Source: Clostridia bacterium (lineage in GTDB: Bacteria > Bacillota > Clostridia > Oscillospirales > CAG-272). Taken from it: a DNA stretch of 64,000 nt. The notes under the pieces are model-generated. The model was not told where the DNA came from, did no database searches, and worked only from the letters and a program-made list of their open reading frames with translations. Positions 19,608-33,559 of the stretch are shown piece after piece (the stretch's first letter is position 1; every line of letters starts with the position of its first letter). Position numbers and translations under genes: made by a program. The stretch spans positions 1 through 64,000 of the forward strand of contig JAFSYU010000020.1 in assembly GCA_017443595.1 (NCBI GenBank), given 5' to 3'.

Positions 19608-19689
19608 AGCTTATCCCCTTTCTATAACCAAGTATACCACAAAAACAAAGGACCGTCAATAACTGCTCAGTTGTAAATGATTTTTATAT

Positions 19690-20000
19690 TGTTGCTTTCA
19701 TCATAGAGTTGTGCCGTTAGCCCGATATTTTCCGGGGTTGTTTCGCGATTCCAGGGCGGGCGACCAATGGTCGCCCCTACGAGACGCGCGCTGCCCCCTC
19801 GATTTAAAATCGACGGGAGGGGACAGGGGGGTATGGGGGGGTTCTCGGGCGTAGCCCGAGCAAAGGGGTTCCCCGTAGCGAACATAGTGAGCAATGGGGG
19901 TTCCCGTGAGGGGTGGGAAACCACCCATTTTCGTCGGCTCCGCCGACACCTTTTTTTATTATTTCTTATTTATTCTTTATTATTTATATCGGTCTTCCCG
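19690..20000 (+). repeat. Copy 2 of the mosaic repeat family, with both GC-rich and AT-rich modules
   Basis: Modules are CGACCAATGGTCGCCCCTAC, the core GGGGTTCCCCGTAGCGAACATAGTGAGCAATGGGGGTTCCCG, GGGTGGGAAACCACCC, GTCGGCTCCGCCGAC and an AT-rich tail tttattatttcttatttattctttatt. Confidence 0.75.
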
Positions 20001-20004
20001 TTCA

Positions 20005-20035
20005 AATTAAAACGGGTGAGCGTTGCTCACCCGAA
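20005..20035 (-). terminator. Terminator of the PP2C::HATPase gene
   Basis: GGGTGAGC-gtt-GCTCACCC hairpin, followed on the minus strand by GUUUUAAUUUG. Confidence 0.55.
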
Positions 20036-20050
20036 AATCATAATTTCTGA

Positions 20051-22174
20051 TTATATATTTTTTGTTATCGTAAGATTATTTTTGCCGTCTTTATATTCAT
20101 AGCGCATATCGTCCATGCTCTTTTTTACCATAAATATCCCGAGCCCTCCGATAGGTCTTTCTTCCGCGGACAGCGTTATATCGGGATCCGGCTTTGCAAG
20201 CGGATCGTACTGCTTGCCTTGATCTATAAACGTGATAAGCACACGGCGCGGATCGTCCGCAGTTTCAAATCGGATGGTGATCTGTCCTACCTCGGGCGCG
20301 TATGCGTAATGTGCGACGTTTACGAACAGCTCCTCTACCGCGACGTTGATCTGCATCTGAGTTTTAGCAGGACACTCAAGCGCCTCAAGCCGTTCGTTTA
20401 TAAAAGCAAGCGCGCTGTCAAGATTTTCGTCCGTTGCGTCGAGCGTAAGTTCCGGCGCTTCTTTTTTGCCTTCCGGTCCGGCGTATGAGAAGCCGAGCAT
20501 GGTTATATCGTCAAACTGCGGGGCTTCACCCACGAATTTTTCTATTGCACCGCGAACGTTGGATATAAGCGCGGCAGGTTTGGCGCCGGGATCTATATTC
20601 AACGCGTCGGTCAGGCGCTCTTCTCCGAACAGGATCGTTTCGGCGTTTGTGGCCTCGGTCACGCCGTCCGTATATACGAACAGACTGTCGCCCGGATGAA
20701 GCTCAAACTCGTGCTCCTTGAATCTCATGCCTTCCATCGTCGCCACGGCGGGTGAATGACGGTATTTTATAAGCTCAAACGAGCCGTCCGCGCGGCGGAG
20801 AGCGGGATGCTCGTGTCCGGCGTTTGCGGCAATGCCCTTGCCGGTCGTTATGTCAATAACGGCAAGCCATACCGTTACGAACAGTTCCGCCTCGTTTCCT
20901 TCACATAACTGATCGTTTACGTATTTCAGGATCTCGGCAGGGCCGCCCCCCATCATGGAGCGGTTTTTGATAAGCGTCTTTGCTATGACCATGAACAGCG
21001 CCGCGGGAACTCCCTTTCCGGAAACGTCCGCCATGACAAGGCCTATATGAGAATCGTCTATCATAAAGAAATCGTAGAAGTCGCCGCCGACTTCCTTCGC
21101 CGGCGTCATTGACGCGTAAAGATCAAACTCGGTGCGGTCCGGGAACGCGGGGAATATTCGCGGAAGCATATCCGCCTGGATCTGTGCGGCAACGTTCAGC
21201 TCCGCGCCTATACGCTCCTTTTCTGCCGTTATCGCCGTCAGGTTGACAATATATCTGTTAATATCTCTTTCCATCTGTTTTACGGAATCACACAGCGTCT
21301 CCACCTCGTCGCCGGTGCGGATATTCAGACGTGAGATAGCGGAATCTTCCTTTTGTTCGTCGCTTCGATCCTGTACAAACGAACGCGCTGCATCCGAAAG
21401 CATATTGATCGGTTTTATCAGCGCTATTACTATAGCGATAAGAATGACTGCTATCAATATGATAACGGCAATCCCCATAAATATAATAATACTGCGCAGA
21501 TAATCGGCACGGTCCTGCATTATTTCGTCCATTGATATGTCAACTCCGACAAGTGCAATTGACTTTCCGTTATCATCCCTCACCGGTTCCACGGAGGTAC
21601 ACAGCCAGCCGTACGTATCGTTAGTGATGAACGCGGGAATACCGTCTTCCGGATGTTCAACTTCTTTTGCCGGTCCGGAAACAGCATGTTTTGTCCCGAG
21701 CTGACACTGCTCCTCGGTATCATCCGCATCCATTATGTATGTGATCATATTTCCTTCAAGTATCTGGACGTACAGGTATTTGACCCCGTTGCTTTCTTTG
21801 ATATCGAAAAGAACGTCGAGCATCTCGTAATAGAGATCATCCTTGATCGCGTTGGCTTTCCGGTCATATTCATCCTTGTAAGAGACGTCGCTCCAGTATT
21901 TTGCGTCGTCATATTCACCTATCTGTTTGACAGCTTCGTAATAACGGAGAAGAGCTCCCGCGTCAAGTTGAGAAGCCGCTGTTTTTGCAAGGTTTGAAGA
22001 CAGTGTCTTATAGTGATTGTCCATCGTGGAGCTGTAAACTCTGTAACTTATGGTAACCGCGATGGTTGTCAGCACCAGTGCCGCGAAAATGATAACCGCG
22101 ACGGTTTTAAAACGAAGGGAAACAAGCCTGGATTTCTTTTTGTTTGACTTTGACATTGTATTATTTCCTTTCAA
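20051..22174 (-). CDS. Membrane sensor protein carrying a PP2C (SpoIIE/RsbU-type) phosphatase fused to a HATPase_c (RsbW-like anti-sigma kinase) domain
   Basis: 707 aa. A signal anchor and an extracytoplasmic domain of about 200 aa precede a second transmembrane helix. The PP2C motifs are GGDFYDFFMIDDSHIGLVMADVSGKG and DGVTEA. The C-terminal GHKL fold is VAVEELFVNVAHYAY…GGLGIFMVKKSMD. Confidence 0.7.
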   Translation of the reverse strand: MKGNNTMSKSNKKKSRLVSLRFKTVAVIIFAALVLTTIAVTISYRVYSSTMDNHYKTLSSNLAKTAASQLDAGALLRYYEAVKQIGEYDDAKYWSDVSYKDEYDRKANAIKDDLYYEMLDVLFDIKESNGVKYLYVQILEGNMITYIMDADDTEEQCQLGTKHAVSGPAKEVEHPEDGIPAFITNDTYGWLCTSVEPVRDDNGKSIALVGVDISMDEIMQDRADYLRSIIIFMGIAVIILIAVILIAIVIALIKPINMLSDAARSFVQDRSDEQKEDSAISRLNIRTGDEVETLCDSVKQMERDINRYIVNLTAITAEKERIGAELNVAAQIQADMLPRIFPAFPDRTEFDLYASMTPAKEVGGDFYDFFMIDDSHIGLVMADVSGKGVPAALFMVIAKTLIKNRSMMGGGPAEILKYVNDQLCEGNEAELFVTVWLAVIDITTGKGIAANAGHEHPALRRADGSFELIKYRHSPAVATMEGMRFKEHEFELHPGDSLFVYTDGVTEATNAETILFGEERLTDALNIDPGAKPAALISNVRGAIEKFVGEAPQFDDITMLGFSYAGPEGKKEAPELTLDATDENLDSALAFINERLEALECPAKTQMQINVAVEELFVNVAHYAYAPEVGQITIRFETADDPRRVLITFIDQGKQYDPLAKPDPDITLSAEERPIGGLGIFMVKKSMDDMRYEYKDGKNNLTITKNI

Positions 22175-23121
22175 ATCAGGATCAGATTTACGTAAGTATT
22201 GCGGAGCGGTGCGTTATACACAATGGAGGAAACGACGTCTTCTCCTTCGCTGCATAAATAATCCGGAAGGTATGCCGTAAGCTGCTTCACGGAGAATGTT
22301 TCACATAAAGCATATGCAACTCTTCTGATCTGCTGCAGAGAAAGATTTGTTTCGATCACCTTAAGCGAATCATTTTGAGGAGCGCACATGATGAAATATT
22401 TGCAGCCGTCAAGCTCGACGCTGAGTGTCCTGCCGCCGAAAAACGCGGTTTCGTTGATGCAGAAGCCCACGTGCCGGTCAGACCATTTGACGTACGGATG
22501 AGAGGAAAACGCACAATCGCGCATCCGGTTGTAATCCTTTGGCAAAACCGGAGAAAAAACAACGTCTTCTTTTATTTCCGGGCATACGGTGACAAGCTTA
22601 AGAATTGCGTCCTGCTCAAAGCCAAGTGTTTTATAATACGGTATAATGTCCCGGCGAACGGGTTTGCCGAAAAGTGCGCAGTTGTTGTTTCTTGCATATT
22701 CCTCCACGTAATGAAACAGCGCGGTGTAGTATCCGTTTTTTCGGTATTCGGGTAAGGATCCGCCTGCGTACAGAAATTTTGCGTTTAGTGCCTCAGCCCC
22801 GTCGACAAATGAAGCGTCAAACCAATGCAGCATGCTTACAGGCTGACCGTCGACCGCATAAACCGCTGTCGTTATATGACCGAAATTTTCACGGTAAAAA
22901 AACCTGACGTAGTCTTCATCGTCGCCGAAGCAAACCTTCCAAATTCTGCACAGCGATGCTATATCTTTCTCTTCTGCAGTGCGTATTCCGTTGTCCAATT
23001 TATCAAACCTCCACGGTGAGTGTATTGAATCCGGCATAGCGCCGGTAGAAAAAGCGTTTTGATTTTGCTTTGACCATTTGTATTCCGAGCGCGGCAAGAC
23101 TTTCCTCGTCCTCGTAATCAC
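22171..23121 (-). CDS. GNAT-fold acyltransferase-like protein. The start is uncertain because the listed N-terminus overlaps the upstream gene by 118 nt.
   Basis: 316 aa as listed. A GNAT-like N-terminus begins around IRTAEEKDIASLCRIW. ATGA overlap with the downstream PP2C gene indicates coupling. Confidence 0.4.
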   Translation of the reverse strand: MITRTRKVLPRSEYKWSKQNQNAFSTGAMPDSIHSPWRFDKLDNGIRTAEEKDIASLCRIWKVCFGDDEDYVRFFYRENFGHITTAVYAVDGQPVSMLHWFDASFVDGAEALNAKFLYAGGSLPEYRKNGYYTALFHYVEEYARNNNCALFGKPVRRDIIPYYKTLGFEQDAILKLVTVCPEIKEDVVFSPVLPKDYNRMRDCAFSSHPYVKWSDRHVGFCINETAFFGGRTLSVELDGCKYFIMCAPQNDSLKVIETNLSLQQIRRVAYALCETFSVKQLTAYLPDYLCSEGEDVVSSIVYNAPLRNTYVNLILI

Positions 23122-24760
23122 GTCCGGTCTTCATAGCGAACGGGTTGAAGTCTACGGCGTTGTCACGCAGATGAAGCACTGCAGTGCCGTCATTTTCGAT
23201 ACACAGCGTAAGCTGTATATACTCGTCACCCTTTTTACGGAATGCGTTGTCTATTATTGCCTGACATACTTCCTCAACACATAAGGTAATATAATATACC
23301 TTCTTAGGATCAGCATCGTTTTCTTCACAGAAGCCTTCGGCTTTGCTCAAAAGATCGGAGATATCCGAGGAATTGGCGTCAAGCAGATATGAGAAGACCG
23401 CGTCTGTTTCTTTTCGCTTTTTGATATGGCAAACGGGGACCCAGATCGCAAGTGTTCCAAGCTCCGCCGCCAAAAAAACGAACCAGAACCATTTAATTCC
23501 AAACGATGAGAATATTACCGCAAATCCGGCAAAGCAGACGAAGGTGCGAAGCTGATTTATCAAAAATACTATTTTTTCTCTGCCTATAGTTTGAAAGCAC
23601 GAGCTCCACGTAATGCTCAATCCGGCGGGTATAACCGACAGACAGAACAGCCGCACGGCGAACGCTCCGTCGGTTACGGCATCGCCCGTAAGTCCGAACA
23701 GCGCGCAGACAGACGGCGCAAATACCGCGAAAAGCACGGATATTACCCCGCCGCATATCACACCGATACCGATGGCGAGAATCATTACGCGTTTGATCGC
23801 ATCCTTATTGTGTTCCGCATAAAACGTTCCGGACAGAGGCTGAGCCGTATCACCGAGAGCCAGATATAAAGCCAGCGCAAAATATGAAACGTTTTGAACG
23901 ACGTTCATCTGCGCCAAAGCGCTCTCGCCTCCGAGACGCAGTAATATATTATTTACGATAAGAAGCGCGGCAAACTGACCGATATAGCCGAAGGAAGAAG
24001 ACATTCCCGTTTTAAGCACGCTGAATATCAGCTTTATATCGGGTTTTGAGAATTTGAAGCGCAGTATCGCCCATTTGCGCGTAAAGTGCATTGAAAAAAT
24101 AACGATACCTATCGCTTTTCCTAATACCGTCGCGATTATCGCACCGCGCACGTCAAGCTTGAAAACGAGTATCAGGACAGCGCTTGCGGCGACGTCTGAC
24201 AGATATCCTGTCAGATATCCCGCGCTTGCGAGCTTTTCGTTATCGTCACAGCGTATGCAGTAATATAATAAAAAATATACGAAGGTCAGAGGCGCTCCCC
24301 AGAACATGATCTGCAGATAATCTTTTGTATAATTCCACAACTCCGTGCCCTCGGTCCCGGCGCCGAGCCCTTTAAGTATATACGGCATAAACAATGAGCC
24401 GAGCACGGCTATCATGACGCTGATAATCAAAGCAACTATAAGCATCTGTGAGAAGACTTTGATCCCGTCCTTCGCCCTACCCTTGCCTATCGCTCTCGTA
24501 TAATGCACGGAAGCACCGATGGCTATCCCGATGTCAAGAACGTTGAATATCATATAGACCGGCGCGACAAGCGACATTGTAGCAAGTCCCGTTTTTCCTA
24601 TGCGGATACCGATGAAGAGGGCGTCGGCAATATCTCCGAGTGCAAGTCCGAGCGACGAAAGAAGCGTCGGCCAAAGCAGCCGCCGGAACATACTGTCGGT
24701 AAACGATTTACTATTTATTCCATTTAATGCGGTATCGCTCATATCGCTCTTCCTTCCCAT
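23003..24760 (-). CDS. MATE/MOP-superfamily membrane protein fused to a C-terminal HATPase_c (anti-sigma-kinase-like) domain
   Basis: 585 aa, probably starting at M7 (24742) with ATGA coupling to the upstream gene. About 12 transmembrane helices of MATE type are followed by ITLCVEEVCQAIIDNAF…IQLTLCIENDGTAVLHLRDNAVDFNPF, a GHKL-like segment. Confidence 0.5.
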   Translation of the reverse strand: MGRKSDMSDTALNGINSKSFTDSMFRRLLWPTLLSSLGLALGDIADALFIGIRIGKTGLATMSLVAPVYMIFNVLDIGIAIGASVHYTRAIGKGRAKDGIKVFSQMLIVALIISVMIAVLGSLFMPYILKGLGAGTEGTELWNYTKDYLQIMFWGAPLTFVYFLLYYCIRCDDNEKLASAGYLTGYLSDVAASAVLILVFKLDVRGAIIATVLGKAIGIVIFSMHFTRKWAILRFKFSKPDIKLIFSVLKTGMSSSFGYIGQFAALLIVNNILLRLGGESALAQMNVVQNVSYFALALYLALGDTAQPLSGTFYAEHNKDAIKRVMILAIGIGVICGGVISVLFAVFAPSVCALFGLTGDAVTDGAFAVRLFCLSVIPAGLSITWSSCFQTIGREKIVFLINQLRTFVCFAGFAVIFSSFGIKWFWFVFLAAELGTLAIWVPVCHIKKRKETDAVFSYLLDANSSDISDLLSKAEGFCEENDADPKKVYYITLCVEEVCQAIIDNAFRKKGDEYIQLTLCIENDGTAVLHLRDNAVDFNPFAMKTGRDYEDEESLAALGIQMVKAKSKRFFYRRYAGFNTLTVEV

Positions 24761-25626
24761 ATGCGGATAAGTTCTTTAGGTCTGCGCAGCAGTTTGTGCG
24801 TTCGTAACCCCGGCAGTCCCATATCTTCCTCCGAATCAACGGTTTTGACTTCATCAGGCAAAAAGCGGTACAGTTCCCGTTTTATAAAACAGTCGCACGA
24901 CCTGTTTAAAACCTTGCAAAAACTGACGTCAAATATCTCGGGTATAACAAAAACACCTGCTGCGTACGCAACGTCTTTGTCATCCGCTTTGAAGAGTGCG
25001 CCCCACAGCTGCAGCTGTGAAAAATGACACAGCGCTTTTTCGGCGGCTGCGGTATCGGCAAGATCGTCGCCCGAGCGTCCTTCCGTCCATTTGCGGTTGA
25101 TGATACGCGCCCGATCAACGTTTTCATCGCATAACGGTTCCACAGACCATGATAAAGCCATGGAACGTCCGAGATTTACCTGATGACGCAAATTTTTGAA
25201 TTCTTTTCCGGCAAGCGCGATCTGTTCGTCTTTATCGTACAAATACGGATAATCGTCACGACAGGCGGTAAATCTGAACCTGCCGGAATAGACACGCTCC
25301 AAAAACAACATGTCCTCGTCGGTCACAAAAGAAAAGACCGGTGAACATTTTGTCAAAAGCGTGTCGATCAGCTGTTTTTTTCCGGTTTCCGTGCCGCACG
25401 GAAAAAGATACACATCTTCACCGCGTACACCGTGCCTGATAAGGAAAGCATCGTCAGATATGTATATTTCATAACCCTCGTGCTCTTGCCATACAAACAG
25501 AGAAGCAAACGTGTAAACGTACATAGTGCTGCGCGATTTTTTACGGATAAACTCTATCTTTTCCATTTGAGAAAACGTAATAGGCGTAAACCGGATCGGC
25601 GTATGGTTACCGAGATTTAATGGCAT
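24739..25626 (-). CDS. DUF2156 (LPG-synthase C-terminal / MprF-like aminoacyl-tRNA transferase fold) domain protein
   Basis: 295 aa. The assignment is by similarity to the DUF2156 family of standalone GNAT-fold aminoacyl-tRNA-dependent transferases. It is moderate-confidence and from memory. Confidence 0.4.
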   Translation of the reverse strand: MPLNLGNHTPIRFTPITFSQMEKIEFIRKKSRSTMYVYTFASLFVWQEHEGYEIYISDDAFLIRHGVRGEDVYLFPCGTETGKKQLIDTLLTKCSPVFSFVTDEDMLFLERVYSGRFRFTACRDDYPYLYDKDEQIALAGKEFKNLRHQVNLGRSMALSWSVEPLCDENVDRARIINRKWTEGRSGDDLADTAAAEKALCHFSQLQLWGALFKADDKDVAYAAGVFVIPEIFDVSFCKVLNRSCDCFIKRELYRFLPDEVKTVDSEEDMGLPGLRTHKLLRRPKELIRIWEGRAI

Positions 25627-25682: not shown

Positions 25683-25979
25683 TCATTCAATACTTAAAAT
25701 ATCGACAAATCCCGTAACGTCAAAGATCTCCATGATCTCGGGTTTTACGTTCGTTATCTTCATCTCTCCCTGCTTGTTCATCACCTTCTGTGCGGCAAGA
25801 AGCACGCGCAGTCCGGCGGAAGATATGTAATCGAGTTTTTCAAAATCAAACGTGAGCCCGCTTATACCGTTGACAGATGTGCGAAGCTCTGCTTCAAGCT
25901 GCGGAGAAGTTGTGGTGTCAAGACGTCCTTCAAGTACGATCGTAAGTTTATCTCCGTTCTGATTTTTGGTGATAGTCAT
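25683..25979 (-). CDS. STAS-domain anti-sigma-factor antagonist (SpoIIAA/RsbV-like)
   Basis: 98 aa, with the signature LDYISSAGLRVLL and a conserved phospho-Ser context. Confidence 0.8.
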   Translation of the reverse strand: MTITKNQNGDKLTIVLEGRLDTTTSPQLEAELRTSVNGISGLTFDFEKLDYISSAGLRVLLAAQKVMNKQGEMKITNVKPEIMEIFDVTGFVDILSIE

Positions 25980-26335: not shown

Positions 26336-26372
26336 TGTATTTTCCTCTTTTCTTTTTATTTTTTATTTTAAA

Positions 26373-27051: not shown

Positions 27052-27531
27052 TTATCCGAGCGCCGTACGCAGAGCGGACAACGCTTTATTGTGCCGTATT
27101 TTTACCATTCCGTAACTGATACCGAGCGTCTCAGCGATCTCTGTCAGCGGCATACGGTCGTAGTAATGAAGAACTATAACGTCTGTAAGCTCATCCGGCA
27201 GGTCCTCAAGCGCCCCGGCAAGCTCACGAAGCATCTCGGCGTTTGTGACCTCGTCTTCGGGTGAGCTGTCGCCCGGCACGTCCTCCGGGATCTCTTCCGT
27301 AGGACGCGCTCTGCGGCAGTAATCTATAACGGTGTTTTTAGTGATCGTATATATCCACGTTCCGACCGACGCTTTTGACGGATCGTAGTCGTCCGCGCAG
27401 CTGAACGCTTTTACAAAAACGTCTTCGCAAAGATCTTCAACGTCACTTTCGTTATAGATACGGGAACGTATGTAGGACGTTACCTTCCCGCGATATTCGG
27501 TATACAACCGTTCTTTTTCATCCGCCGTCAT
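27052..27531 (-). CDS. ECF-type sigma-70 family RNA polymerase sigma factor
   Basis: 159 aa. Region 2 (DLCEDVFVKAF…TWIYTITKNTVIDYCRR) and region 4 (LTEIAETLGISYGMVKIRHNKALSALR) are both recognisable. Confidence 0.8.
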   Translation of the reverse strand: MTADEKERLYTEYRGKVTSYIRSRIYNESDVEDLCEDVFVKAFSCADDYDPSKASVGTWIYTITKNTVIDYCRRARPTEEIPEDVPGDSSPEDEVTNAEMLRELAGALEDLPDELTDVIVLHYYDRMPLTEIAETLGISYGMVKIRHNKALSALRTALG

Positions 27532-27734
27532 ACCGGGGATCCTCCCGGCATTTTTTTCTTTCCGGCTATTTCAGATATCTGTTGAACACCTGCCGCGGAG
27601 ACCGAGTCAAGCTCGTCGTCTGTAAGCTCGCGCTCTTCAACGCGGCGGTGAACGCCGTCTATCACCTTCTGCAGCCGGAGATCGTTTTCAAAGTGCTGAT
27701 AATCAAAGAGGTTTTGTAATTTTGTTTTTGTCAC
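27528..27734 (-). CDS. Small hypothetical protein translationally coupled to the ECF sigma gene
   Basis: 68 aa with a GTG start and a GGAGG ribosome-binding site. Its stop overlaps the sigma-factor start. It carries a leader-like ELTDDELDSVSAAG segment. Confidence 0.4.
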   Translation of the reverse strand: MTKTKLQNLFDYQHFENDLRLQKVIDGVHRRVEERELTDDELDSVSAAGVQQISEIAGKKKMPGGSPV

Positions 27735-27800
27735 TCTTGATCCTCCTTTGCCGCTTTGTCTTACGCCTGTTTATACGCAGAAAAATTCGTTATGGCAGTG

Positions 27801-27866
27801 TTTTTTTCAAATTTTTTTGATTTTTTTCGGATTTTTTCGTTTTTTTCAGTTTTTTTCGTCTTTTTG
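27801..27866. promoter_or_regulatory. Array of seven helically phased T/A-tracts, predicted intrinsically curved DNA, upstream of the sigma/peptide transcription unit
   Basis: T5-7 tracts begin at 27801, 27812, 27821, 27832, 27841, 27851 and 27861, a period of about 10 bp. The array overlaps the last codons of the ABC gene. Confidence 0.5.
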
Positions 27867-30050
27867 AACCGTATCGAGTCTCTGACGCGCTACAAGTTCC
27901 GCAAAGAAGCCTTCCTTTGCTATAAGATCGTCATACGTTCCGTCCTCAACTATTTTGCCGTGATCGAGCACGATTATGCGGTCGCACTGGCGTATAGTTG
28001 AAAGGCGGTGCGCTATGACTATACGCGTGCATTTCATCCTGTCAAGCGCGTCTGAGACCTGCTTCTGAGTTATATTGTCAAGAGCGCTCGTCGCCTCGTC
28101 AAACATAAGTATCCTCGGTTTTGGGGCAACTGCGCGAGCGATAAAGAGCCTCTGCCGCTGTCCGCCGGATATACCGCCCTGTCCCTCTGAGATAAGCGTG
28201 TTCATCCCCATGGGCATAGCGCGTATATCGTCAGCCATACCGGCTATCTCCGCCGCCTCCCACGCGTCGTCAAGCGTCAGCCACGGCGCGGAGATCGTGA
28301 TATTGGAGAAAATATCTCCGGTAAACAGTTTTCCGCTCTGCATTACCGCACCGATCTTACGGCGCAGTGATTTTAAATCGAGCTTTTTGATATCGTGTCC
28401 GTCGTAATACACGGCTCCCTTCTGCGGTGTTTCAAAGCCGAGCATTATCCTCATAAGCGTTGACTTGCCGCAGCCTGTCTTTCCGACTATGGCAACGTAC
28501 TGGCCGGGACGGATCTTCAAAGACAGATCGTCGATGACCGGCGGCATATCGTCGGTATAACGGAAAGTTATATTATTCAGCTCTATCCCTCCGGAAAGAC
28601 GCGTGACCACCTGTTTGTCAAGCGAGATCTCAGGCTCCGCCTCCATTATCGGCTTTGCCATTTCAAGCGCCGGTTTTATCTGCGCAAGTCCCGTTGCGAT
28701 ACCGGCGAGCGCGATAAACGCGCTGTTGACCATACCGTAAGCTGAGTTGAACGCGTAATACTCCGCTACCGAGACGTTTGTCTTTACCGCGATGAAAAAC
28801 ATTGCTATGGTGCCGACAAGCGAAACGGCGAGAGTAATGACGGATGAGATCTTCAGAAACAGCGGCGGATCGTAAAGGAGCTTTGCGTCCTTTGCGTACA
28901 TTTTGCCCCATTTGGCAAACGCTCTCTGCTCCGCGCCCGAAAGCTTTATTTTCTGTATACCGGATATAAGCTGATAACTCATACCCAATTCCTTGCTTTC
29001 GTGCTCCATGCTCTGACGCGTTATCTTCATCTGTATGAAGATCCTGATAACGGTGATCAAAAGCGTTGCAAAAGTGACTATGAGCGCGGGCGCGACGAGC
29101 GCGGGCGCGTATTTGAATATCTGGAAAATATATACTATGGAGAATACCGACGCCATTCCCGTAGTCAGAAACATACTTGCTATCTGGCTGCAAAGTCCGT
29201 TTATGTAACCGGCGCGGTTAGAAAGCTCACCGGCGCTGTAATCCTTGAAGAAATCCGGCGGCAGCGAAAGGATCCGCATCATGGTCGCCGCTTCTACCGA
29301 AAGATTCAGCTTTGTTCCTATGCGCGACGTCAGAAGCGCGCGGACGGACGTAAAGAGAAGAATGCTCAGCGACGCGCTTATCATAAATACAGCCGTGCCG
29401 ATAAGCGCCGAAGCGCTGCCCGACGTTATAACGTACGAAAACAGATAATTGTTGAGCCGCGGTATCAGCATACCTATGCCGGTCACCGCAAGCATTGCAA
29501 GTATAAGCGGAATGATATCCGAAAACGATATCTGCTGGATTATATATTTAAGTAAGCTTCCGACCGTCATTTTTGAGATCGGGAACGGTTTATAGAAAGC
29601 TATTGCTTCCTTTTCTATAATATCCTGATTTTTGCGGTTGATCCGCACCGTTTTTCCGAGCTTCCTGTCATAAAAGCTGTAGCCGTTCAGTCCGGTGGGT
29701 ATCAGAGCGACGACGCTGCCGTCGTCCCGGCGCGTGCCAAGCATCGCTCCTATCGCGTCGCGGTACCAGCCCTTTTCAAGTTCTACGGAGCGGCGCATGA
29801 ATCCCGCGGGACGCAGCAGATATTCAAGCACCTCGTTCATATCAGTGATCGCATCCGGCACTTCCTGCGCTGCAACGTGATAATATTTTAAAATATCTCC
29901 TATCGCGTCAGCCGTGATCTGTCTGTCGTCATTGAGCGATTTGCTCATCCGGCGGCCCATAACGGCGTCCGCCATCTGCTCAAACGACTCTTCAAACACC
30001 GCCTGATCCGCGTCTTTTCTTTTGCGTATCTGTTCATCAAACCAGCCCAT
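27846..30050 (-). CDS. NHLM-type bacteriocin ABC transporter, ATP-binding/permease subunit, with a degenerate non-catalytic N-terminal domain
   Basis: 734 aa. An N-terminal domain of about 160 aa lacking the catalytic Cys is followed by a six-helix permease and an ABC ATPase with Walker A GKTGCGKST and signature LSGGQRQR. Confidence 0.7.
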   Translation of the reverse strand: MGWFDEQIRKRKDADQAVFEESFEQMADAVMGRRMSKSLNDDRQITADAIGDILKYYHVAAQEVPDAITDMNEVLEYLLRPAGFMRRSVELEKGWYRDAIGAMLGTRRDDGSVVALIPTGLNGYSFYDRKLGKTVRINRKNQDIIEKEAIAFYKPFPISKMTVGSLLKYIIQQISFSDIIPLILAMLAVTGIGMLIPRLNNYLFSYVITSGSASALIGTAVFMISASLSILLFTSVRALLTSRIGTKLNLSVEAATMMRILSLPPDFFKDYSAGELSNRAGYINGLCSQIASMFLTTGMASVFSIVYIFQIFKYAPALVAPALIVTFATLLITVIRIFIQMKITRQSMEHESKELGMSYQLISGIQKIKLSGAEQRAFAKWGKMYAKDAKLLYDPPLFLKISSVITLAVSLVGTIAMFFIAVKTNVSVAEYYAFNSAYGMVNSAFIALAGIATGLAQIKPALEMAKPIMEAEPEISLDKQVVTRLSGGIELNNITFRYTDDMPPVIDDLSLKIRPGQYVAIVGKTGCGKSTLMRIMLGFETPQKGAVYYDGHDIKKLDLKSLRRKIGAVMQSGKLFTGDIFSNITISAPWLTLDDAWEAAEIAGMADDIRAMPMGMNTLISEGQGGISGGQRQRLFIARAVAPKPRILMFDEATSALDNITQKQVSDALDRMKCTRIVIAHRLSTIRQCDRIIVLDHGKIVEDGTYDDLIAKEGFFAELVARQRLDTVQKDEKN

Positions 30051-30062
30051 TACGTCACCCCC

Positions 30063-32258
30063 TTATTCCGACGTCACGAGCCTTTTGTACGCGCCGTCAA
30101 GAGCCATAAGCTGTTCGTGCGTACCGCGCTCCACGACCTTGCCGTGATCTAAAACGACTATCTCGTCACAGTCACGTATAGTTGAGAGCCTGTGAGCTAT
30201 AACGATGCAGGTTATGCCGCGGTTCTTAATGGAATTCACCACTTCGTACTCTGTTTTGGCGTCAAGCGCGCTTGTCGCCTCGTCAAGTATGATTACAGTG
30301 GGATCCTGCGCAAGAACGCGCGCGATCTCTATACGCTGACGCTGACCGCCGGAGAAATCCTTGCCGCCTTCCGTCAGTACGTACTGGTATCCGCCCTCAC
30401 GCTGTATTATATCCTCATGTATCTGAGCGTCGCGCGCGGCAAGAACTACCTCAAAATCTTCTATTGAATTGTCCCACATTTTTATATTGTTGGATATCGT
30501 GTCTTCAAAAAGGATGATATCCTGATCCACAACGGCTACCGAACCGGTGAACACGCTGCGGTCTATCCGGGAGATCGTTTTGCCGTCAAAGAGTATTTCC
30601 CCACTCCACGGCTGATAAAGTCCGGATATGAGTTTTGATAACGTGGATTTTCCGCAGCCGGACATTCCGACGAACGCCACGCGCTGCCCCTGTTTAAGGT
30701 CAAGGCTGAAATCCTCTATGAGCGGCGCTTCAAGCCGCGAATATCCGAACGTCACGTTCTTCATCTGAAGCGAACCGGAAAGCTTGTCAAAGCCGTCTTC
30801 TTCTCCGTCTGCGCCGTGCTCCTTACTGTTGTGTGCAAATACGGGATCCTCCGGATATTCCATAACGTCTTCTATACGCTCCATTGACGTTCTCATCTCC
30901 TGCATCGTCTGTCCGGCGGAGATAAGATCTGCCGCGGGAGCTATGAACGAGGCGAGAAATCCCTGGAACGCGAATATCATACCGGGTGTAAACTTGCCGA
31001 TCATCACAAGCCATACGCCGAGGATAAGGACCGCCGTGTTCATTATGCCGGAGATCAAAGACGGGATCATTCCGAGATACTGATTTATACGTTCAAAACG
31101 TACTTTCTGCGTATTGACAGACGCCTGGTATCCGGACCATTTTTCAAAATAGCCGTTTTCCGCGCCGCTTGCCTTTATAGTCTCTATCATTTCCACGCCG
31201 GATACGGTGGCGGCAACGAGCTTACCGCTGTCGCGCATCATAACGCGCGTGATGTTCACACGTTTTTTAGATATGTACCGCGAGATCAAAAGCTGAAAGA
31301 TAACGGACGCGACGCCTACGAGCGTGAGTATCCATGAATATCTGATCATGACCGCGAGATAGAAGATCATCATCACCGTGTTCAGTGCGAGCGGTGCGAG
31401 AGTGTTCACTATCTCACCGGCGATATCGGCGTTCAGTTCTTTGCGCTGCTGTATATCGCCCGCCATACGCTGTGAGAAAAACTCCATGGGCAGACGGAGC
31501 ACTTTCCACATATACGTGCTGTTTCCGACGACCGCCATTTTGCCGTCGAGCTTGAGAGAGTATATCGCGTTTATCCAGTTCGCAATAAGCTGAATTACCG
31601 CTATTATGCTCAGACCGACAAAAAACGGTATGAACCAGCCCGGCTGATTCTGCGTCAGAAGTTCGTCTAAGAAAACGCGCGAAAATCCGGCTGATACTAT
31701 TCCTACGAGAGTTGAGATCACGGAGGTTATTATAACAAACGCCACAGCGCCGCCGGCGCCGCGCAGTCTCTTTTTCGTAAAGCTCATTATGCGCTTAGGC
31801 TCTCCGCCCGGCTCAAACTCTTCTCCGGGTTCTATCATAAGGCAGATGCCGGTAAAGCTCTCGTCAAATTTTTCAAGCGTTACGGTATAATCTCCCCTTG
31901 CCGGATCGTTCAAATACACCTTGTTGCCGCGGAATCCGTCGCATACTACAAAGTGGTTGAATTCCCAGTGGATAATGCACGGGAACGTTCCTTTTGCACG
32001 GAGCGTCTCCGGCTCAAAACGGTATCCCTTAGCCGTAAAGCCGTAGTTTCTCGCCGCTTTGAGGATATTGCCCGCCTTGCTGCCGTCACGCGAGACTCCG
32101 CAGTCACGTCTGACCTGTTCAAGCGGCACCCATTTGTTGTAATACGCCATGACCATACACAGGCAGGCGGCGCCGCATTCAAGCGCCTCCATCTGCATGA
32201 TCACAGGTACTTTAGCCCTGCCTTTTGTGACAGGCTGATTTATATTCTTTTTGCTCAT
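30063..32258 (-). CDS. Peptidase-containing ABC transporter (PCAT) with C39 double-glycine peptidase, permease and ATPase domains
   Basis: 731 aa. The C39 motif is QMEALECGAACLCMVMAYY. A permease and an ABC ATPase (GMSGCGKST, LSGGQRQR) follow. Confidence 0.85.
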   Translation of the reverse strand: MSKKNINQPVTKGRAKVPVIMQMEALECGAACLCMVMAYYNKWVPLEQVRRDCGVSRDGSKAGNILKAARNYGFTAKGYRFEPETLRAKGTFPCIIHWEFNHFVVCDGFRGNKVYLNDPARGDYTVTLEKFDESFTGICLMIEPGEEFEPGGEPKRIMSFTKKRLRGAGGAVAFVIITSVISTLVGIVSAGFSRVFLDELLTQNQPGWFIPFFVGLSIIAVIQLIANWINAIYSLKLDGKMAVVGNSTYMWKVLRLPMEFFSQRMAGDIQQRKELNADIAGEIVNTLAPLALNTVMMIFYLAVMIRYSWILTLVGVASVIFQLLISRYISKKRVNITRVMMRDSGKLVAATVSGVEMIETIKASGAENGYFEKWSGYQASVNTQKVRFERINQYLGMIPSLISGIMNTAVLILGVWLVMIGKFTPGMIFAFQGFLASFIAPAADLISAGQTMQEMRTSMERIEDVMEYPEDPVFAHNSKEHGADGEEDGFDKLSGSLQMKNVTFGYSRLEAPLIEDFSLDLKQGQRVAFVGMSGCGKSTLSKLISGLYQPWSGEILFDGKTISRIDRSVFTGSVAVVDQDIILFEDTISNNIKMWDNSIEDFEVVLAARDAQIHEDIIQREGGYQYVLTEGGKDFSGGQRQRIEIARVLAQDPTVIILDEATSALDAKTEYEVVNSIKNRGITCIVIAHRLSTIRDCDEIVVLDHGKVVERGTHEQLMALDGAYKRLVTSE

Positions 32259-32271
32259 AATATATAAACCG

Positions 32272-32532
32272 TCAATTTATTACGTACGTGATAGGAGCGA
32301 CCTCTTTTACGCTGCCGTCGGCATCTTTTACCTCAACTCTGCCGAAAATGCTCCACGTCAGCATACCGATAAGCAGTATCAAAAGCGCAAGAAGCACGAT
32401 CCATACAGAAGGAGAAGTGACTCGGATATAGTCGTTAAGCGACTCCGGGCTTGTTACCTGTTTGATGCTCTTTTCTCTGAAAATGCTGTTTTTTGACTGA
32501 TCTTCCGACATTTTATATCCCTCCCAAATCAT
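32272..32532 (-). pseudogene. HlyD-family NHLM secretion protein reduced to its N-terminal membrane-anchor fragment
   Basis: 86 aa (…SPESLNDYIRVTSPSVWIVLLALLILLIGMLTWSIFGRV…) matches only the N-terminal ~80 aa of periplasmic adaptor proteins that normally run to about 400 aa. Confidence 0.5.
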
Positions 32533-33217
32533 TTTTTACAAAAGCGTAGAATTTTGCGCGTATATCCTTTGCCTGATCACGGCGTAAAAGATACGTTTTA
32601 CCGTCTCTGCTCATACAGTCTTTATATGTCATTCTTGATATATGGTTCATATTAAGCGTGACGCCCTTTTTGATCTGAAGAAAGGAATCGTCAAGCAGCT
32701 CGTCTATCTCTTTAAACGGTTTCCTTATGGAATACACGGTATTGTTGCTGCAGGTGATCTCCGTGTTGTGGCCGTGTCCCTCCACGCGTATGATCTCATC
32801 CTGATAAAGTACGTTGATGACCCGGTCTATCCGTACCGTCAGCGTATGACGCGGTTCCGTCTTTGTCTGCAGGCGGCGGAAGACCTCAACTATGTCTTCC
32901 TGCGACACGGGCTTGACAAGATAATGCACGGCGTCTACGGAAAAAGCATCCACCGCGTGTTCCCGGCTGCTTGTGATAAAAGCCACCGGCGTGTGCGGAC
33001 AGACAGCCTTCATCTGTTTGGCGATCTCTATACCGTTTTCCTCTTTCATGTAAACGTCGCAAAGGAGCAGATCGTAAACGGCGCCGTCCCCGGCTGCTTT
33101 CAGCAGGTCCCTGCCTTCCGAAAACCGGTCAATACGGTAATTGCCGGAAATATTGAAGATCATTTCCTGCAGATTGTATACTTCTTCATTGTCATCATTC
33201 AAAATGGCAATATGCAA
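32513..33217 (-). CDS. LytTR-family response regulator (REC + LytTR DNA-binding domain)
   Basis: 234 aa. The receiver domain has the LLLCDVYM phospho-acceptor-Asp context, and a C-terminal LytTR domain follows. No cognate histidine kinase lies in the window. Confidence 0.8.
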   Translation of the reverse strand: MHIAILNDDNEEVYNLQEMIFNISGNYRIDRFSEGRDLLKAAGDGAVYDLLLCDVYMKEENGIEIAKQMKAVCPHTPVAFITSSREHAVDAFSVDAVHYLVKPVSQEDIVEVFRRLQTKTEPRHTLTVRIDRVINVLYQDEIIRVEGHGHNTEITCSNNTVYSIRKPFKEIDELLDDSFLQIKKGVTLNMNHISRMTYKDCMSRDGKTYLLRRDQAKDIRAKFYAFVKNDLGGI

Positions 33218-33284
33218 TTCCGATCGTCTCCTTTAATTTAATTATAATATACGATTATATAGTATTATTACCATATTTCAAGAG

Positions 33285-33329
33285 AAACGGCACAACCGGT
33301 AGTAAAAAACGGCACAAGTGGTAATAAAA
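33285..33329. promoter_or_regulatory. Pair of 22-bp-phased direct repeats, a candidate LytTR binding site upstream of the regulator gene
   Basis: AAACGGCACAACCGGTAGTAAAA and AAACGGCACAAGTGGTAATAAAA. The ACGGCACAA cores are 22 bp apart, and the pair sits about 68-112 bp upstream of the start codon. Confidence 0.5.
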
Positions 33330-33559
33330 TAAGGTATTATACGTAATATTGTCGATTTAAAAAGCAAAATAAAAGCCGATATTTGACGGTATTGCTATAG
33401 CGGCGCCTTTTCGTGCAGATCCGCTTCGCTTGCCCGCGGGCAAGCTTCACTTTGCTTCACGTCCCGCCCCGGAAAAACACCTGACCAAACAAAAGCGCCG
33501 GGAGCATATAAGTCACCCGACGCGCGTTTTGGGTTTACGTAAAGCCCCGTGCCGGGGTA

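What the first reader, a model, noticed from the sequence alone, without database searches (positions are those of the whole stretch)
19608..33330. RiPP/bacteriocin-like island with no canonical modifying enzyme
Nineteen minus-strand genes are involved, listed from the high-coordinate end:
- a LytTR response regulator with LytTR-type direct repeats;
- a truncated HlyD gene;
- an NHLM-type PCAT with a C39 peptidase, and a partner ABC with a degenerate C39-like domain;
- a phased A-tract array;
- a 68-aa ORF coupled to an ECF sigma factor;
- a Nif11-type leader precursor with a CxxC-x16-CxxC core;
- two tandem GG-leader peptides with hydrophilic cores;
- a terminator-hairpin cluster;
- a STAS anti-anti-sigma factor;
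- a DUF2156 protein;
- a MATE::HATPase fusion;
- a GNAT-like protein;
- a sensor PP2C::HATPase fusion;
- an XRE regulator.

Leader peptides, a double-glycine peptidase exporter and a dedicated sigma/partner-switching circuit together argue for a secreted, processed peptide system. No lanthipeptide, thiazole/oxazole, radical-SAM or YcaO enzyme is present. The only candidate tailoring enzymes are the DUF2156 aminoacyl-tRNA-transferase fold and the GNAT-like protein. This could be an undescribed peptide class, for example aminoacylated or acylated peptides, or a peptide-signalling circuit.
Basis: partly seen in the sequence, partly recalled or inferred. Interest (0 to 1): 0.82.

Follow-up and report, generated by a model that had tools for sequence, protein, structure and literature searches.

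The report
Peptide exporter island with sigma-factor circuit
A rumen Clostridia genome carries a double-glycine peptide export system with enzyme-free, very hydrophilic cargo peptides and a conserved, apparently undescribed regulatory set (a small leader-like protein, an ECF sigma factor and a partner-switching module), while the two supposed tailoring enzymes belong to a separate, widely conserved cassette.

Summary
The genes and DNA features are mostly real: 15 minus-strand ORFs, not 19. The exporter pair passes TIGR03796 and TIGR03797, and its C39 domain closely matches LahT150. The peptide leaders fail the Nif11 thresholds, and the "truncated HlyD" is a conserved mini-protein.

Two reciprocal context scans split the island into two parts.

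1. DUF2156–MATE::HATPase–GNAT–PP2C::HATPase is syntenic in 35 rumen Clostridia genomes. Of 14 loci with at least 6 kb upstream, 12 have no exporter or peptides. So there is no co-occurrence support for DUF2156 or GNAT as peptide tailoring enzymes.

2. Across 44 exporter lineages, including human-gut ones, miniHlyD–PCAT–ABC2 recurs with:
- the 68-aa ORF plus ECF sigma (18 lineages);
- STAS/PP2C partner switching (17–19);
- Nif11-like precursors (14);
- radical-SAM (12) or LanM (2) maturases.

This window is an enzyme-free variant, probably exporting unmodified peptides.

The 68-aa ORF belongs to an uncatalogued family of at least 121 clusters. It has a PCAT-type recognition helix ending in invariant AAG and sits behind a conserved ECF-type promoter. 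It may couple sigma activity to export, as Bordetella BtrA/BtrS does; this is untested.

Verdict: new variant of a known kind, moderate interest.

The parts
33254..33281 (-). Sigma-70-like promoter of the exporter operon (TTGAAA-16-TATAAT, 11 of 12 matches)
33285..33317 (-). Two exact 11-nt direct repeats (TTGTGCCGTTT), 22 nt start to start, abutting the -35 element. Candidate LytTR binding site.
   Evidence: these are the only exact copies in the window
32513..33217 (-). Response regulator with a LytTR DNA-binding domain. No histidine kinase is present in the island.
   Evidence: Found next to this exporter clade in only 2 of 44 lineages.
32272..32532 (-). Mini-HlyD: an 86-aa membrane-anchored protein matching only the N-terminal 44 positions of TIGR03794
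   Evidence: Conserved as 72-190-aa proteins upstream of the PCAT in related loci.
30063..32258 (-). Peptidase-containing ABC transporter (NHLM ABC1) with an intact C39 Cys/His/Asp
   Evidence: TIGR03796 950 bits. The C39 domain scores 247 bits against LahT150, PDB 6MPZ. Full-length match to PCAT1, PDB 4RY2.
27846..30050 (-). Partner ABC exporter subunit (NHLM ABC2). Its N-terminal 175-aa domain is of unknown fold.
   Evidence: TIGR03797 717 bits. No similarity to C39.
27800..27865 (.). Phased A/T-tract array (period 9-11 nt) upstream of the ECF-type promoter. It overlaps the last codons of ABC2.
27771..27797 (-). ECF-type promoter, TGCC-N16-CGTATAA, 37 nt upstream of the orf68 start
   Evidence: The only match in the window. 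Conserved upstream of orf68 homologues. Of 58 matches in 1.3 Mb of related loci, 34 lie directly upstream of orf68.
27528..27734 (-). orf68: a small protein of an uncatalogued family. It has a conserved N-terminal LFDYQxF...LQxxID region, a PCAT-type recognition helix (ELTDDELDSVSAAG) and a variable charged tail. It is translationally coupled to the sigma gene.
27052..27531 (-). ECF sigma factor, closest to SigZ but below that model's cutoff
   Evidence: Found with orf68 in 18 of 44 exporter lineages.
26676..26984 (-). 102-aa cargo: a divergent Nif11-like leader ending in ISGG, then a 45-aa CxxC-x16-CxxC (zinc-ribbon-like) core
   Evidence: Similar GG-leader/CxxC..CxxC cargos occur in L041 and L076.
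26373..26600 (-). 75-aa GG-leader peptide, copy a, with a hydrophilic 52-aa core
26108..26335 (-). 75-aa GG-leader peptide, copy b
26024..26086 (-). Three consecutive RNA hairpins after the peptide genes, with no U-tract. Possible processing or attenuation site.
   Evidence: z = -3.84
25683..25979 (-). STAS anti-sigma-antagonist with the DYISSAGL phospho-serine motif
   Evidence: motif read directly from the sequence
24739..25626 (-). Standalone DUF2156 (aminoacyl-tRNA transferase fold). Belongs to the conserved cassette, not to the peptide module.
   Evidence: Closest solved relative is 2HQY.
23003..24760 (-). MATE transporter fused to a HATPase_c_2 domain whose G1/G2 glycines are lost. Probably a binding-only domain.
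22171..23121 (-). GNAT (Acetyltransf_9). The true start is probably downstream, near residue 29-42.
20051..22174 (-). Membrane sensor fused to a PP2C (SpoIIE) phosphatase and a HATPase_c_2 kinase. It is a fusion of the two adjacent genes seen in human-gut relatives.
20013..20033 (-). Intrinsic-terminator-like hairpin ending the cassette

Best explanation
The region is a composite of two units.

UNIT 1: a LahT/NHLM-type double-glycine peptide export system.
- A LytTR-controlled promoter probably drives LytTR-miniHlyD-PCAT-ABC2 (inferred from the repeats and the promoter-like site).
- A separate ECF-type promoter, preceded by phased A-tracts, drives orf68-ECF sigma. It probably also drives the three cargo genes that follow on the same strand, up to a hairpin cluster (inferred).
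- The cargo peptides carry leaders in the register the C39 domain needs (hydrophobic -4, -7 and -12, then GG). No maturase is present, so they are most likely cleaved and exported unmodified (inferred).
- The cargos are a small zinc-ribbon-like peptide and two very hydrophilic 52-residue peptides. They do not look like pore-forming bacteriocins. Their role (signal, surface or matrix component, or other) is open.

UNIT 2: STAS-DUF2156-MATE::HATPase-GNAT-PP2C::HATPase.
- This is a partner-switching module built around a membrane transporter.
- The sensor PP2C::HATPase protein would set the phosphorylation state of STAS. Unphosphorylated STAS would then bind the degenerate HATPase domain on the MATE transporter (inferred from domain logic).
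- DUF2156 and GNAT ride with this module, not with the peptides.

LINK BETWEEN THE UNITS
Partner-switching modules and the orf68-ECF pair recur next to this exporter clade. Unit 2 is therefore probably a regulatory partner of export or of the sigma factor.

MOST LIKELY ROLE OF orf68 (speculative)
orf68 is a PCAT-engaged regulator of the co-translated ECF sigma: an exported or cleaved anti-sigma factor, or a pro-signal. That would tie cargo transcription to exporter activity, as BtrA/BtrS/BtrUVW do for the Bordetella type III system.
For: - Family scores for the exporter.
- C39 domain scores 247 bits against LahT150 with the catalytic residues aligned. LahT needs hydrophobic residues at -4, -7 and -12 (PMC6363468); the window leaders fit by direct reading.
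- No maturase in the island or flanks.
- The cassette is syntenic in 35 loci, and 12 of the 14 with at least 6 kb upstream lack the exporter.
- Reciprocal scan of 80 exporter loci: of 57 with at least 1.2 kb downstream, 35 have the ECF sigma and 34 have orf68.
- Per 44 lineages: STAS 19, PP2C 17, ECF and orf68 18 each, radical SAM 12, LanM 2, DUF2156 and GNAT 4 each.
- The arrangements differ and GC content ranges from 39% to 66%.
- The ECF-type promoter is conserved upstream of orf68.
- The orf68 family has 121 clusters and an invariant AAG.
- HATPase motif comparison.
- Bordetella btr locus content (PMC7498569).
Against: - There is no expression, cleavage or export data.
- Co-transcription of the cargo genes with the sigma gene is inferred only from orientation and the lack of another detected promoter.
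- The context scans sample only close relatives of the two anchor proteins (49-79% identity for the DUF2156-anchored loci, 56-79% for the ABC2-anchored loci). Many contigs are short, so absences are uncertain, and an exporter could lie elsewhere in cassette-only genomes.
- DUF2156 (at 23% identity) again sits between ABC2 and a PP2C sensor in the distant locus L052. Other conjugating enzymes (GH3, methyltransferase plus GNAT) occupy the same slot in L046 and L110. A chemical link to the peptides is therefore not excluded.
- orf68 ends its recognition helix in AAG rather than GG, so it may not be cleaved.
- HATPase-type anti-sigma factors classically control group-3 sigma factors, not ECF sigma factors.
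Confidence: 0.55

Rival explanations
1. DUF2156 (aminoacyl-tRNA dependent) and/or GNAT modify the Lys/Ser/Thr/Asp/Glu-rich cores before export, giving an undescribed aminoacylated or acylated peptide class.
For: - The enzymes are adjacent and on the same strand.
- The cores are rich in modifiable side chains.
- A divergent DUF2156 recurs beside ABC2 in L052.
- GH3, methyltransferase and GNAT enzymes sit in the equivalent slot of other exporter loci.
- GNAT acylation of Lys in leader-bearing RiPPs is known (nostolysamides; abstract listed).
Against: - The cassette is conserved at 49-88% identity in 35 genomes, while the peptides have only 2-5 homologues in 5.8 billion proteins.
- Twelve of 14 well-flanked cassette loci lack peptides and exporter.
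- Only 4 of 44 exporter lineages carry the close DUF2156 ortholog (at least 40% identity) together with GNAT.
- The enzymes always sit inside the STAS...PP2C module beside a transporter, not beside the precursors.
- All characterised DUF2156 substrates found in the literature search are lipids or sterols.
Confidence: 0.1
2. A peptide quorum-sensing circuit. The orf68 tail or the 75-aa peptides are secreted signals. The extracytoplasmic domain of the PP2C sensor, or an unlinked kinase feeding the LytTR regulator, senses them and closes a positive loop through STAS and the sigma factor.
For: - orf68 has the layout of a pro-pheromone: a conserved 'leader' and a short, hypervariable tail.
- There is a LytTR regulator with repeats at its own promoter.
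- Sensor domains are present on the PP2C proteins: 5TMR-LYT and dCache in relatives.
- The sigma promoter appears autoregulated.
Against: - There is no histidine kinase in the island.
- LytTR accompanies this exporter clade in only 2 of 44 lineages.
- The tails are charged and of low complexity, with no conserved feature.
- The AAG motif is not a canonical cleavage site.
- The N-terminal part of orf68 is more conserved than the last 13 leader residues that LahT150 needs for recognition (PMC6363468). That suggests an intracellular partner.
Confidence: 0.2
3. No functional link between the units. The exporter/peptide island was inserted next to an unrelated conserved cassette in one rumen lineage, and the adjacency is inherited.
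For: - The exporter sits beside the DUF2156 cassette only in the closest relatives (L001-L003, L007, L037).
- The context upstream of the cassette is otherwise variable.
Against: - STAS/PP2C modules, with standalone or fused HATPase and with or without MATE, recur beside this exporter clade.
- They do so in at least four different arrangements, upstream or downstream, in genomes of 39-66% GC.
- That is far more than a few such modules per genome would give by chance (rough estimate, not computed).
Confidence: 0.12
4. The cassette is an envelope-remodelling or self-protection device. DUF2156 aminoacylates a membrane lipid, the MATE domain moves it outward (a split MprF-like arrangement), GNAT caps it, and the partner switch tunes this in response to envelope or peptide stress.
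For: - All known DUF2156 activities found are tRNA-dependent lipid or sterol aminoacylation.
- The DUF2156 and MATE genes overlap.
- A GH3 enzyme with weak similarity to the lyso-ornithine-lipid synthetase OlsH occupies the same slot in L046.
- The cassette is useful without any exporter, which would explain its wide distribution.
Against: - The MATE hit is to drug/cation antiporters, not to known lipid flippases.
- The closest solved relative is an uncharacterised standalone protein, 2HQY, not MprF.
- There are no lipid data.
Confidence: 0.15

Closest known systems
LahT and the lah lanthipeptide cluster of Lachnospiraceae bacterium C6A11 (PDB 6MPZ; PMC6363468), and more broadly the NHLM export system TIGR03796/03797/03794 for Nif11/NHLP-leader peptides
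   Same: - The C39 domain scores 247 bits against LahT150 and the catalytic residues are conserved.
- Both ABC subunits pass their equivalog cutoffs.
- There are several precursors with leaders ending in GG and hydrophobic residues at -4, -7 and -12.
   Different: - No LanM, cyclodehydratase or radical-SAM partner is present.
- The window leaders fail TIGR03798.
- HlyD is reduced to an 86-aa anchor.
- The cores are hydrophilic and mostly lack Cys.
- An orf68-ECF sigma pair and a partner-switching module are attached.
Bordetella btr locus: ECF sigma BtrS, secreted anti-sigma BtrA, partner switchers BtrU/W/V, interleaved with transporters and amino-acid enzymes (PMC7498569)
   Same: - An ECF sigma factor with a small adjacent protein that carries an export signal.
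- A PP2C/kinase/STAS trio.
- A transporter and amino-acid-handling enzymes interleaved.
- All attached to a dedicated secretion machine.
   Different: - The secretion system is different (type III versus PCAT), and the host is Gram-negative.
- There is no sequence homology between orf68 and BtrA.
- The analogy is one of architecture only and is untested here.
LytTR-regulated class II bacteriocin/competence loci (Com, Blp, Pln type; from general knowledge)
   Same: - GG-leader peptides, a PCAT, and a LytTR regulator.
- Direct repeats about 21-22 nt apart at its promoter.
   Different: - No cognate histidine kinase or recognisable pheromone.
- No immunity gene.
- The cores are not amphipathic or hydrophobic.
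- LytTR is not a conserved partner of this exporter clade.
Faecalibacterium MAM and its PCAT (PMC8836110, PMC12184118), and PCAT1 with its cargo in Clostridium thermocellum (PDB 4RY2)
   Same: - Unmodified GG-leader proteins of unknown primary function, exported by a PCAT in Clostridia.
- The mam gene always lies near a four-gene 'sporulation' cluster, which may be the same partner-switching association.
   Different: - There is no sequence similarity between the cargos.
- A MAM sequence recalled from memory gave no hit in the loci.
- The papers do not name the four genes.
MprF / aminoacyl-phosphatidylglycerol synthases and other DUF2156 transferases; standalone DUF2156 structure 2HQY
   Same: PF09924 domain (73 bits); a profile of the family matches 2HQY at E = 3e-31.
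   Different: - It is standalone, with no fused flippase.
- It is embedded in a partner-switching operon.
- Its substrate is unknown.
GNAT-acylated RiPPs with long leaders (nostolysamides, seen; selidamides, from memory)
   Same: A GNAT near leader-bearing precursors.
   Different: - Here the GNAT co-occurs with the MATE/PP2C cassette, not with precursors.

Membership tests
NHLM/NHLP bacteriocin export system | ABC1 subunit with C39 peptidase (TIGR03796) | tested here: met
   950.2 bits against a cutoff of 853.3. Cys/His/Asp align with LahT150.
NHLM/NHLP bacteriocin export system | ABC2 subunit (TIGR03797) | tested here: met
   716.9 bits against a cutoff of 709.4
NHLM/NHLP bacteriocin export system | Full-length HlyD-type secretion protein (TIGR03794, 421 positions) | tested here: not met
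   37 bits against a cutoff of 156.2; only positions 2-44 match. Relatives have 72-190-aa versions.
Nif11-like leader peptide precursors (TIGR03798 / PF07862) | Leader scores above the curated cutoff | tested here: not met
   The window 102-aa protein scores 13.4 against 32.3, and 15.6 against 23.8. Its close homologues also fail. Precursors in related exporter loci pass or come close: 56.2, 33.9, 31.2.
Double-glycine (C39) substrates | GG/GA/GS at -2/-1 with hydrophobic residues at -4, -7 and -12 | tested here: met
   Direct reading gives V/A-4, L-7, L-12 for the 75-aa peptides and I-4, L-7, L-12 for the 102-aa protein. The rule comes from PMC6363468. orf68 fits the register only if cut after AA.
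Double-glycine (C39) substrates | Actual cleavage and export | not testable with these tools
   Needs an in-vitro protease assay or supernatant mass spectrometry.
RiPP biosynthetic gene cluster | A leader-dependent modifying enzyme in the cluster | tested here: not met
   No lanthipeptide synthetase, YcaO, radical-SAM or ATP-grasp maturase in the island or in about 20 kb of flanks. The only ATP-grasp Pfam hits in the flanks belong to the carbamoyl-phosphate synthase large subunit. Relatives have rSAM/SPASM or LanM.
Class II (unmodified) bacteriocin locus | Cationic amphipathic or hydrophobic core, and an immunity gene | tested here: not met
   Cores have GRAVY of -0.9 to -1.0 and net charge of about +1. 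No small membrane immunity ORF was identified.
Partner-switching system (RsbU/V/W type) | STAS protein with a phosphorylatable Ser, a PP2C phosphatase and a HATPase_c_2 kinase | tested here: met
   STAS 53.9 bits with DYISSAGL, SpoIIE 151 bits, HATPase_c_2 76 bits with N/G1/G2 motifs kept. Phosphotransfer itself was not tested.
Partner-switching system (RsbU/V/W type) | A sigma factor bound by the HATPase anti-sigma domain | not testable with these tools
   The only nearby sigma factor is ECF-type. Binding is unknown.
MprF / aminoacyl-lipid synthases | DUF2156 (LPG_synthase_C) catalytic domain | tested here: met
   73.4 bits against a cutoff of 27.5
MprF / aminoacyl-lipid synthases | Fused or dedicated lipid flippase, and an aminoacyl-lipid product | tested here: inconclusive
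   The adjacent overlapping gene is a MATE transporter, not an MprF-type flippase domain. The product is not testable.
LytTR peptide quorum-sensing loci | Cognate histidine kinase next to the LytTR regulator | tested here: not met
   No kinase ORF between 18.6 and 36 kb.

The most novel reading that the evidence does not exclude
The orf68 family comprises at least 121 clusters at 50% identity and has no Pfam or NCBIfam model. It may be a new class of PCAT-engaged regulators.

- Each member is a small helical protein, co-translated with an ECF sigma factor.
- Its C-terminal helix mimics a double-glycine leader but ends in invariant AAG.
- It would be bound, cleaved or exported by the PCAT. Sigma activity, and with it cargo transcription, would then follow exporter activity.
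- A STAS/PP2C/HATPase partner switch would gate the system.

This would be a Gram-positive counterpart of FlgM and of BtrA/BtrS. It would operate across gut Clostridia, including human-gut radical-SAM and lanthipeptide clusters.
Probability: 0.3. Interest if true: 0.8.

Novelty: new variant of a known kind. Interest (0 to 1): 0.55.

Why it matters
- It removes a tempting but unsupported claim of a new RiPP chemistry.
- It shows that a common exporter clade of rumen and human-gut Clostridia comes with a conserved regulatory set: a small leader-like protein, an ECF sigma factor and a partner switch. Six full-text searches on combinations of these components found no description of it.
- If orf68 links sigma activity to export, it would explain how these abundant gut peptide clusters are switched on, and it would give a handle for activating silent clusters.
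- The enzyme-free rumen variant also raises the question of what very hydrophilic, unmodified exported peptides and mini zinc-ribbons do outside the cell.

Tried and rejected
- Word-based homology searches for the 75-aa and 102-aa peptides returned only 5 and 2 relatives. The peptides could therefore not be used as anchors for context analysis.
- The NCBIfam leader models were run on peptides from related loci L002, L003, L006 and L007. None passed.
- The first literature search, on DUF2156/MATE/STAS, was swamped by unrelated words.
- Four searches combining PCAT, double-glycine or leader-peptide, ECF or sigma-factor, anti-sigma or partner-switching or SpoIIE terms found nothing relevant.
- The IIBacFinder paper on gut class II bacteriocins says nothing on such regulators.
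- The 'degenerate C39-like' N-terminal domain of ABC2 was tested three ways:
  - BLAST gave E = 3.4.
  - hhalign gave a probability of 0.7%.
The fold therefore remains untested.
- The orf68 model has pLDDT 71 and pTM 0.29. It gives only helix positions and was not used for fold search.
- A MAM sequence recalled from memory gave no hit in the loci.
- Rfam found nothing between 18 and 38 kb.
- An orf68 HMM hits cargo leaders only marginally (E about 0.006). orf68 is therefore a distinct family and not just another precursor.
- One look-up of a window protein by exact sequence found no record.

Full report
**1. What is in the sequence**

Between 18.9 and 33.3 kb there are 15 minus-strand ORFs, not 19. 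Domain and family searches confirm most labels:
- a response regulator with a LytTR domain;
- an 86-aa protein matching only the first 44 positions of the NHLM HlyD model;
- a PCAT above the TIGR03796 cutoff (950 against 853);
- a partner ABC just above the TIGR03797 cutoff (717 against 709);
- an ECF sigma factor;
- STAS;
- DUF2156 (LPG_synthase_C, 73 bits);
- MatE fused to HATPase_c_2;
- a GNAT;
- SpoIIE (PP2C) fused to HATPase_c_2;
- an XRE regulator, which lies just outside the stated start coordinate.

The non-coding features are also real:
- Two exact 11-nt repeats, 22 nt apart, abut a strong sigma-70-like promoter upstream of the LytTR gene. They are the only exact copies in the window.
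- An A/T-tract array with a period of 9-11 nt lies at 27800-27865.
- The 75-aa peptide genes are a 202-nt duplication.
- Three hairpins follow the peptide genes, z = -3.84.

Some labels do not hold:
- The 102-aa protein fails both Nif11 models.
- The 75-aa peptides match nothing.
- The N-terminal domain of the partner ABC shows no similarity to C39 by BLAST or by profile-profile comparison.

The flanks are housekeeping genes. On one side are type III glutamine synthetase, Amt-PII, asparagine synthase, CTP synthase, PurF and CarAB. On the other are GH43, a PP-loop ATPase, ThiF, a peptidase, RF-1 and Sua5. Neither side carries a RiPP maturase. Rfam finds no known RNA.

**2. The exporter is a close relative of a characterised one**

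The C39 domain matches LahT150 (PDB 6MPZ) at 247 bits over 148 residues, and the catalytic Cys, His and Asp positions are conserved. The full-length protein aligns end to end with PCAT1.

LahT removes Nif11-type leaders. It needs hydrophobic residues at -4, -7 and -12, and tolerates almost any core (PMC6363468). Read directly, the window peptides fit this rule:
- ELSDDLLNEVAGG and ELSDDQLNGAAGG for the 75-aa peptides;
- ELPAEALDKISGG for the 102-aa protein.

These peptides are therefore credible substrates even though the leader HMMs fail.

**3. The peptides are lineage-specific; the 'tailoring' genes are not**

The 75-aa peptides have 5 homologues, and the 102-aa protein 2, in a 5.8-billion-protein database. 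All of these are 68% identical or more. A near-identical contig, L001, carries three copies of the 75-aa gene instead of two.

The DUF2156 protein, by contrast, has more than 170 relatives. The 120 listed are 57-100% identical.

A genome scan anchored on DUF2156 returned 35 loci from rumen Clostridia MAGs.
- Wherever the contig extends, the order DUF2156-MATE::HATPase-GNAT-PP2C::HATPase is kept. The one exception is L023, where no GNAT hit was found. MATE::HATPase is 66-85% identical.
- Of the 14 loci with at least 6 kb upstream, only L001 and L002 (the two closest relatives) have the exporter.
- Two further loci with shorter upstream flanks also carry it: L003 and L007.
- L006 has only a Nif11-like leader ORF upstream, with no exporter hit in its 5 kb of flank.
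- The rest have unrelated, variable neighbours and no GG-leader ORFs.

On co-occurrence grounds, DUF2156 and GNAT are therefore not peptide-specific enzymes.

**4. What does travel with the exporter**

The reciprocal scan, anchored on the partner ABC, returned 80 metagenomic loci. They are 56-79% identical, come from rumen and human gut, and range from 39% to 66% GC.
- The mini-HlyD, PCAT and ABC2 are almost always together.
- Of 57 loci with at least 1.2 kb downstream, 35 carry a homologue of the ECF sigma and 34 a homologue of the 68-aa ORF, usually immediately after ABC2.

Collapsed to 44 exporter lineages at 90% identity, the counts are as follows. They are lower bounds, because many contigs are short.

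| Feature | Lineages (of 44) |
|---|---|
| STAS | 19 |
| ECF sigma | 18 |
| orf68 | 18 |
| PP2C | 17 |
| Nif11-like precursors | 14 |
| 465-aa radical-SAM/SPASM protein | 12 |
| MATE::HATPase | 8 |
| DUF2156 | 4 |
| GNAT | 4 |
| LanM | 2 |
| LytTR | 2 |

Identities of the associated genes were checked. The 465-aa protein is radical SAM/SPASM. The 936-aa protein is LanM (462 bits). Several of the precursors pass TIGR03798.

The typical human-gut layout is STAS - 5TMR-LYT::PP2C - standalone HATPase - miniHlyD - PCAT - ABC2 - orf68 - ECF - one to seven Cys-rich Nif11-like precursors - radical SAM.

Other arrangements put the partner-switching genes downstream. Some include MATE::HATPase with a variable enzyme slot:
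- nothing in L105;
- a GH3-family enzyme in L046;
- a methyltransferase plus a GNAT in L110;
- DUF2156 and GNAT in the rumen lineage.

In L052, a divergent DUF2156 sits between ABC2 and an EamA-dCache-HAMP-PP2C protein.

The window is therefore an enzyme-free member of a recurrent multi-module system. Its PP2C::HATPase is a fusion of two genes that are adjacent but separate in the human-gut relatives.

**5. The 68-aa ORF**

It is a real gene.
- Thirty-six distinct homologues were found in the loci.
- A full HMMER scan of 1.84 billion representatives found 121 clusters at E no higher than 1e-3. Almost all are 59-127 aa.
- The consensus is MExKLxxLFDYQxFExNxxLQxxIDxxHxRYxxxELSDDELxxVSAAG, followed by a variable, charged tail of 10-25 residues. 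F10, Q13 and A47 are invariant, and A48 and G49 nearly so.
- No Pfam or NCBIfam model matches any of 80 members.
- The AlphaFold model gives three short helices and a disordered tail (pLDDT 71).

The last helix resembles the PCAT recognition helix. The hydrophobic register (V-4, L-7, E-8, L-12) fits only if the scissile bond follows AA, a non-canonical pair. An HMM of the family hits true cargo leaders only marginally, so this is a distinct family.

Upstream of orf68 there is a conserved ECF-type promoter: TGCC or AGCC, about 17 nt, then CGTAT(A/C)A.
- It occurs once in the window (27797-27771).
- It accounts for 34 of 58 pattern matches in 1.3 Mb of related loci.

This pattern points to autoregulation. 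The cargo genes lie downstream on the same strand.

**6. How it most likely works**

Shown:
- the gene content;
- the recognition-motif fit;
- the conserved promoter;
- the conserved neighbourhoods.

Inferred:
- The exporter operon is driven from the LytTR-repeat promoter.
- The ECF sigma transcribes orf68, itself and probably the three cargo genes.
- The PCAT removes the leaders and exports unmodified cores.
- The PP2C::HATPase sensor sets STAS phosphorylation.
- STAS binds the MATE-fused HATPase domain. That domain has lost the G1/G2 glycines in all orthologues and so looks like a binding-only domain.

The role of orf68 is speculative. I favour a PCAT-engaged regulator of the sigma factor.

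The closest documented architecture is the Bordetella btr locus. It holds the ECF sigma BtrS, an adjacent secreted anti-sigma BtrA, and the BtrU/W/V partner switchers. These are interleaved with an MFS transporter, an ABC transporter, alanine racemase and gamma-glutamylcysteine synthetase, all controlling a secretion system (PMC7498569). That resemblance is one of layout, not of sequence.

**7. What the cargo might be**

The 52-residue cores are strongly hydrophilic (GRAVY about -1), nearly neutral, free of Cys and highly conserved between paralogues. Related rumen loci carry equally hydrophilic, Lys-rich cores.

GG-leader peptides with CxxC...CxxC cores recur in L041 and L076. None of these look like membrane-active bacteriocins, and their function is open.

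The Faecalibacterium MAM protein is a precedent. It is a GG-leader envelope protein, proposed on bioinformatic and modelling grounds to be exported by a PCAT, and its gene always lies near a four-gene 'sporulation' cluster (PMC8836110, PMC12184118).

**8. Novelty and verdict**

The exporter and the idea of leader-directed export are known. The claim of a new peptide chemistry is not supported.

What appears new is twofold:
- the conserved coupling of this exporter clade to an uncatalogued small protein, an ECF sigma factor and partner-switching modules, for which six full-text searches found no description;
- the existence of an enzyme-free variant.

I rate it a new variant of a known kind, of moderate interest.

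Main caveats:
- Contigs are short and the sampling of loci is biased towards close relatives of the anchors.
- There are no complete-genome profiles.
- There is no experimental evidence.
- Diverse conjugating enzymes recur inside the partner-switch module without explanation, which keeps a small probability alive for peptide or small-molecule tailoring.

Noticed in passing
window 18822-18869 and 19864-19911; related copy at 37482-37500: The XRE regulator gene is bracketed by 48-nt inverted repeats that are 90% complementary, with 994 nt between the arms. A third, partial copy of the core lies 17 kb away. This could be a small mobile or invertible element, or a repeated regulatory hairpin.
   Followed up: partly
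L001 9736-10493, compared with window 26108-26600: A near-identical contig from another sample carries three tandem copies of the 75-aa peptide gene instead of two. The middle copy is a chimera of the other two, so this is a copy-number and recombination polymorphism.
   Followed up: partly
P0090 (389 aa, one 3.2-kb contig): A natural-looking in-frame fusion of the STAS protein to the DUF2156 protein, joined by a short Pro/Asp linker. This hints that STAS regulates DUF2156 directly.
   Followed up: partly
L041 7195-7644; L076 13028-13237; window 26676-26984: Short GG-leader peptides whose cores are CxxC-x10-16-CxxC mini zinc-ribbons recur beside this exporter clade in unrelated genomes. This may be an unrecognised cargo type.
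   Followed up: partly
L057 5589-5936: A 115-aa ORF joins the conserved N-terminal part of orf68 directly to a sigma region-4 segment. It is either a deletion pseudogene or a fusion pointing to an orf68-sigma interaction.
   Followed up: no
L046 14507-16120; L110 3816-5255; L052 12237-16247: The slot between the transporter domain and the PP2C sensor holds different conjugating enzymes in different lineages: GH3 family, SAM methyltransferase plus GNAT, or DUF2156 next to an EamA-dCache-HAMP-PP2C fusion. No explanation so far accounts for this.
   Followed up: partly
window 22171-23121: The longest GNAT ORF overlaps the end of the MATE::HATPase gene by 119 nt. Most homologues align only from residue 42-46, so the real start is probably an internal Met (around residue 29).
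   Followed up: no
window 5818-18643: A compact nitrogen/nucleotide block (CarAB, PurF-like, CTP synthase, asparagine synthase, Amt-PII fusion, type III glutamine synthetase) lies directly downstream of the island on the same strand.
   Followed up: no
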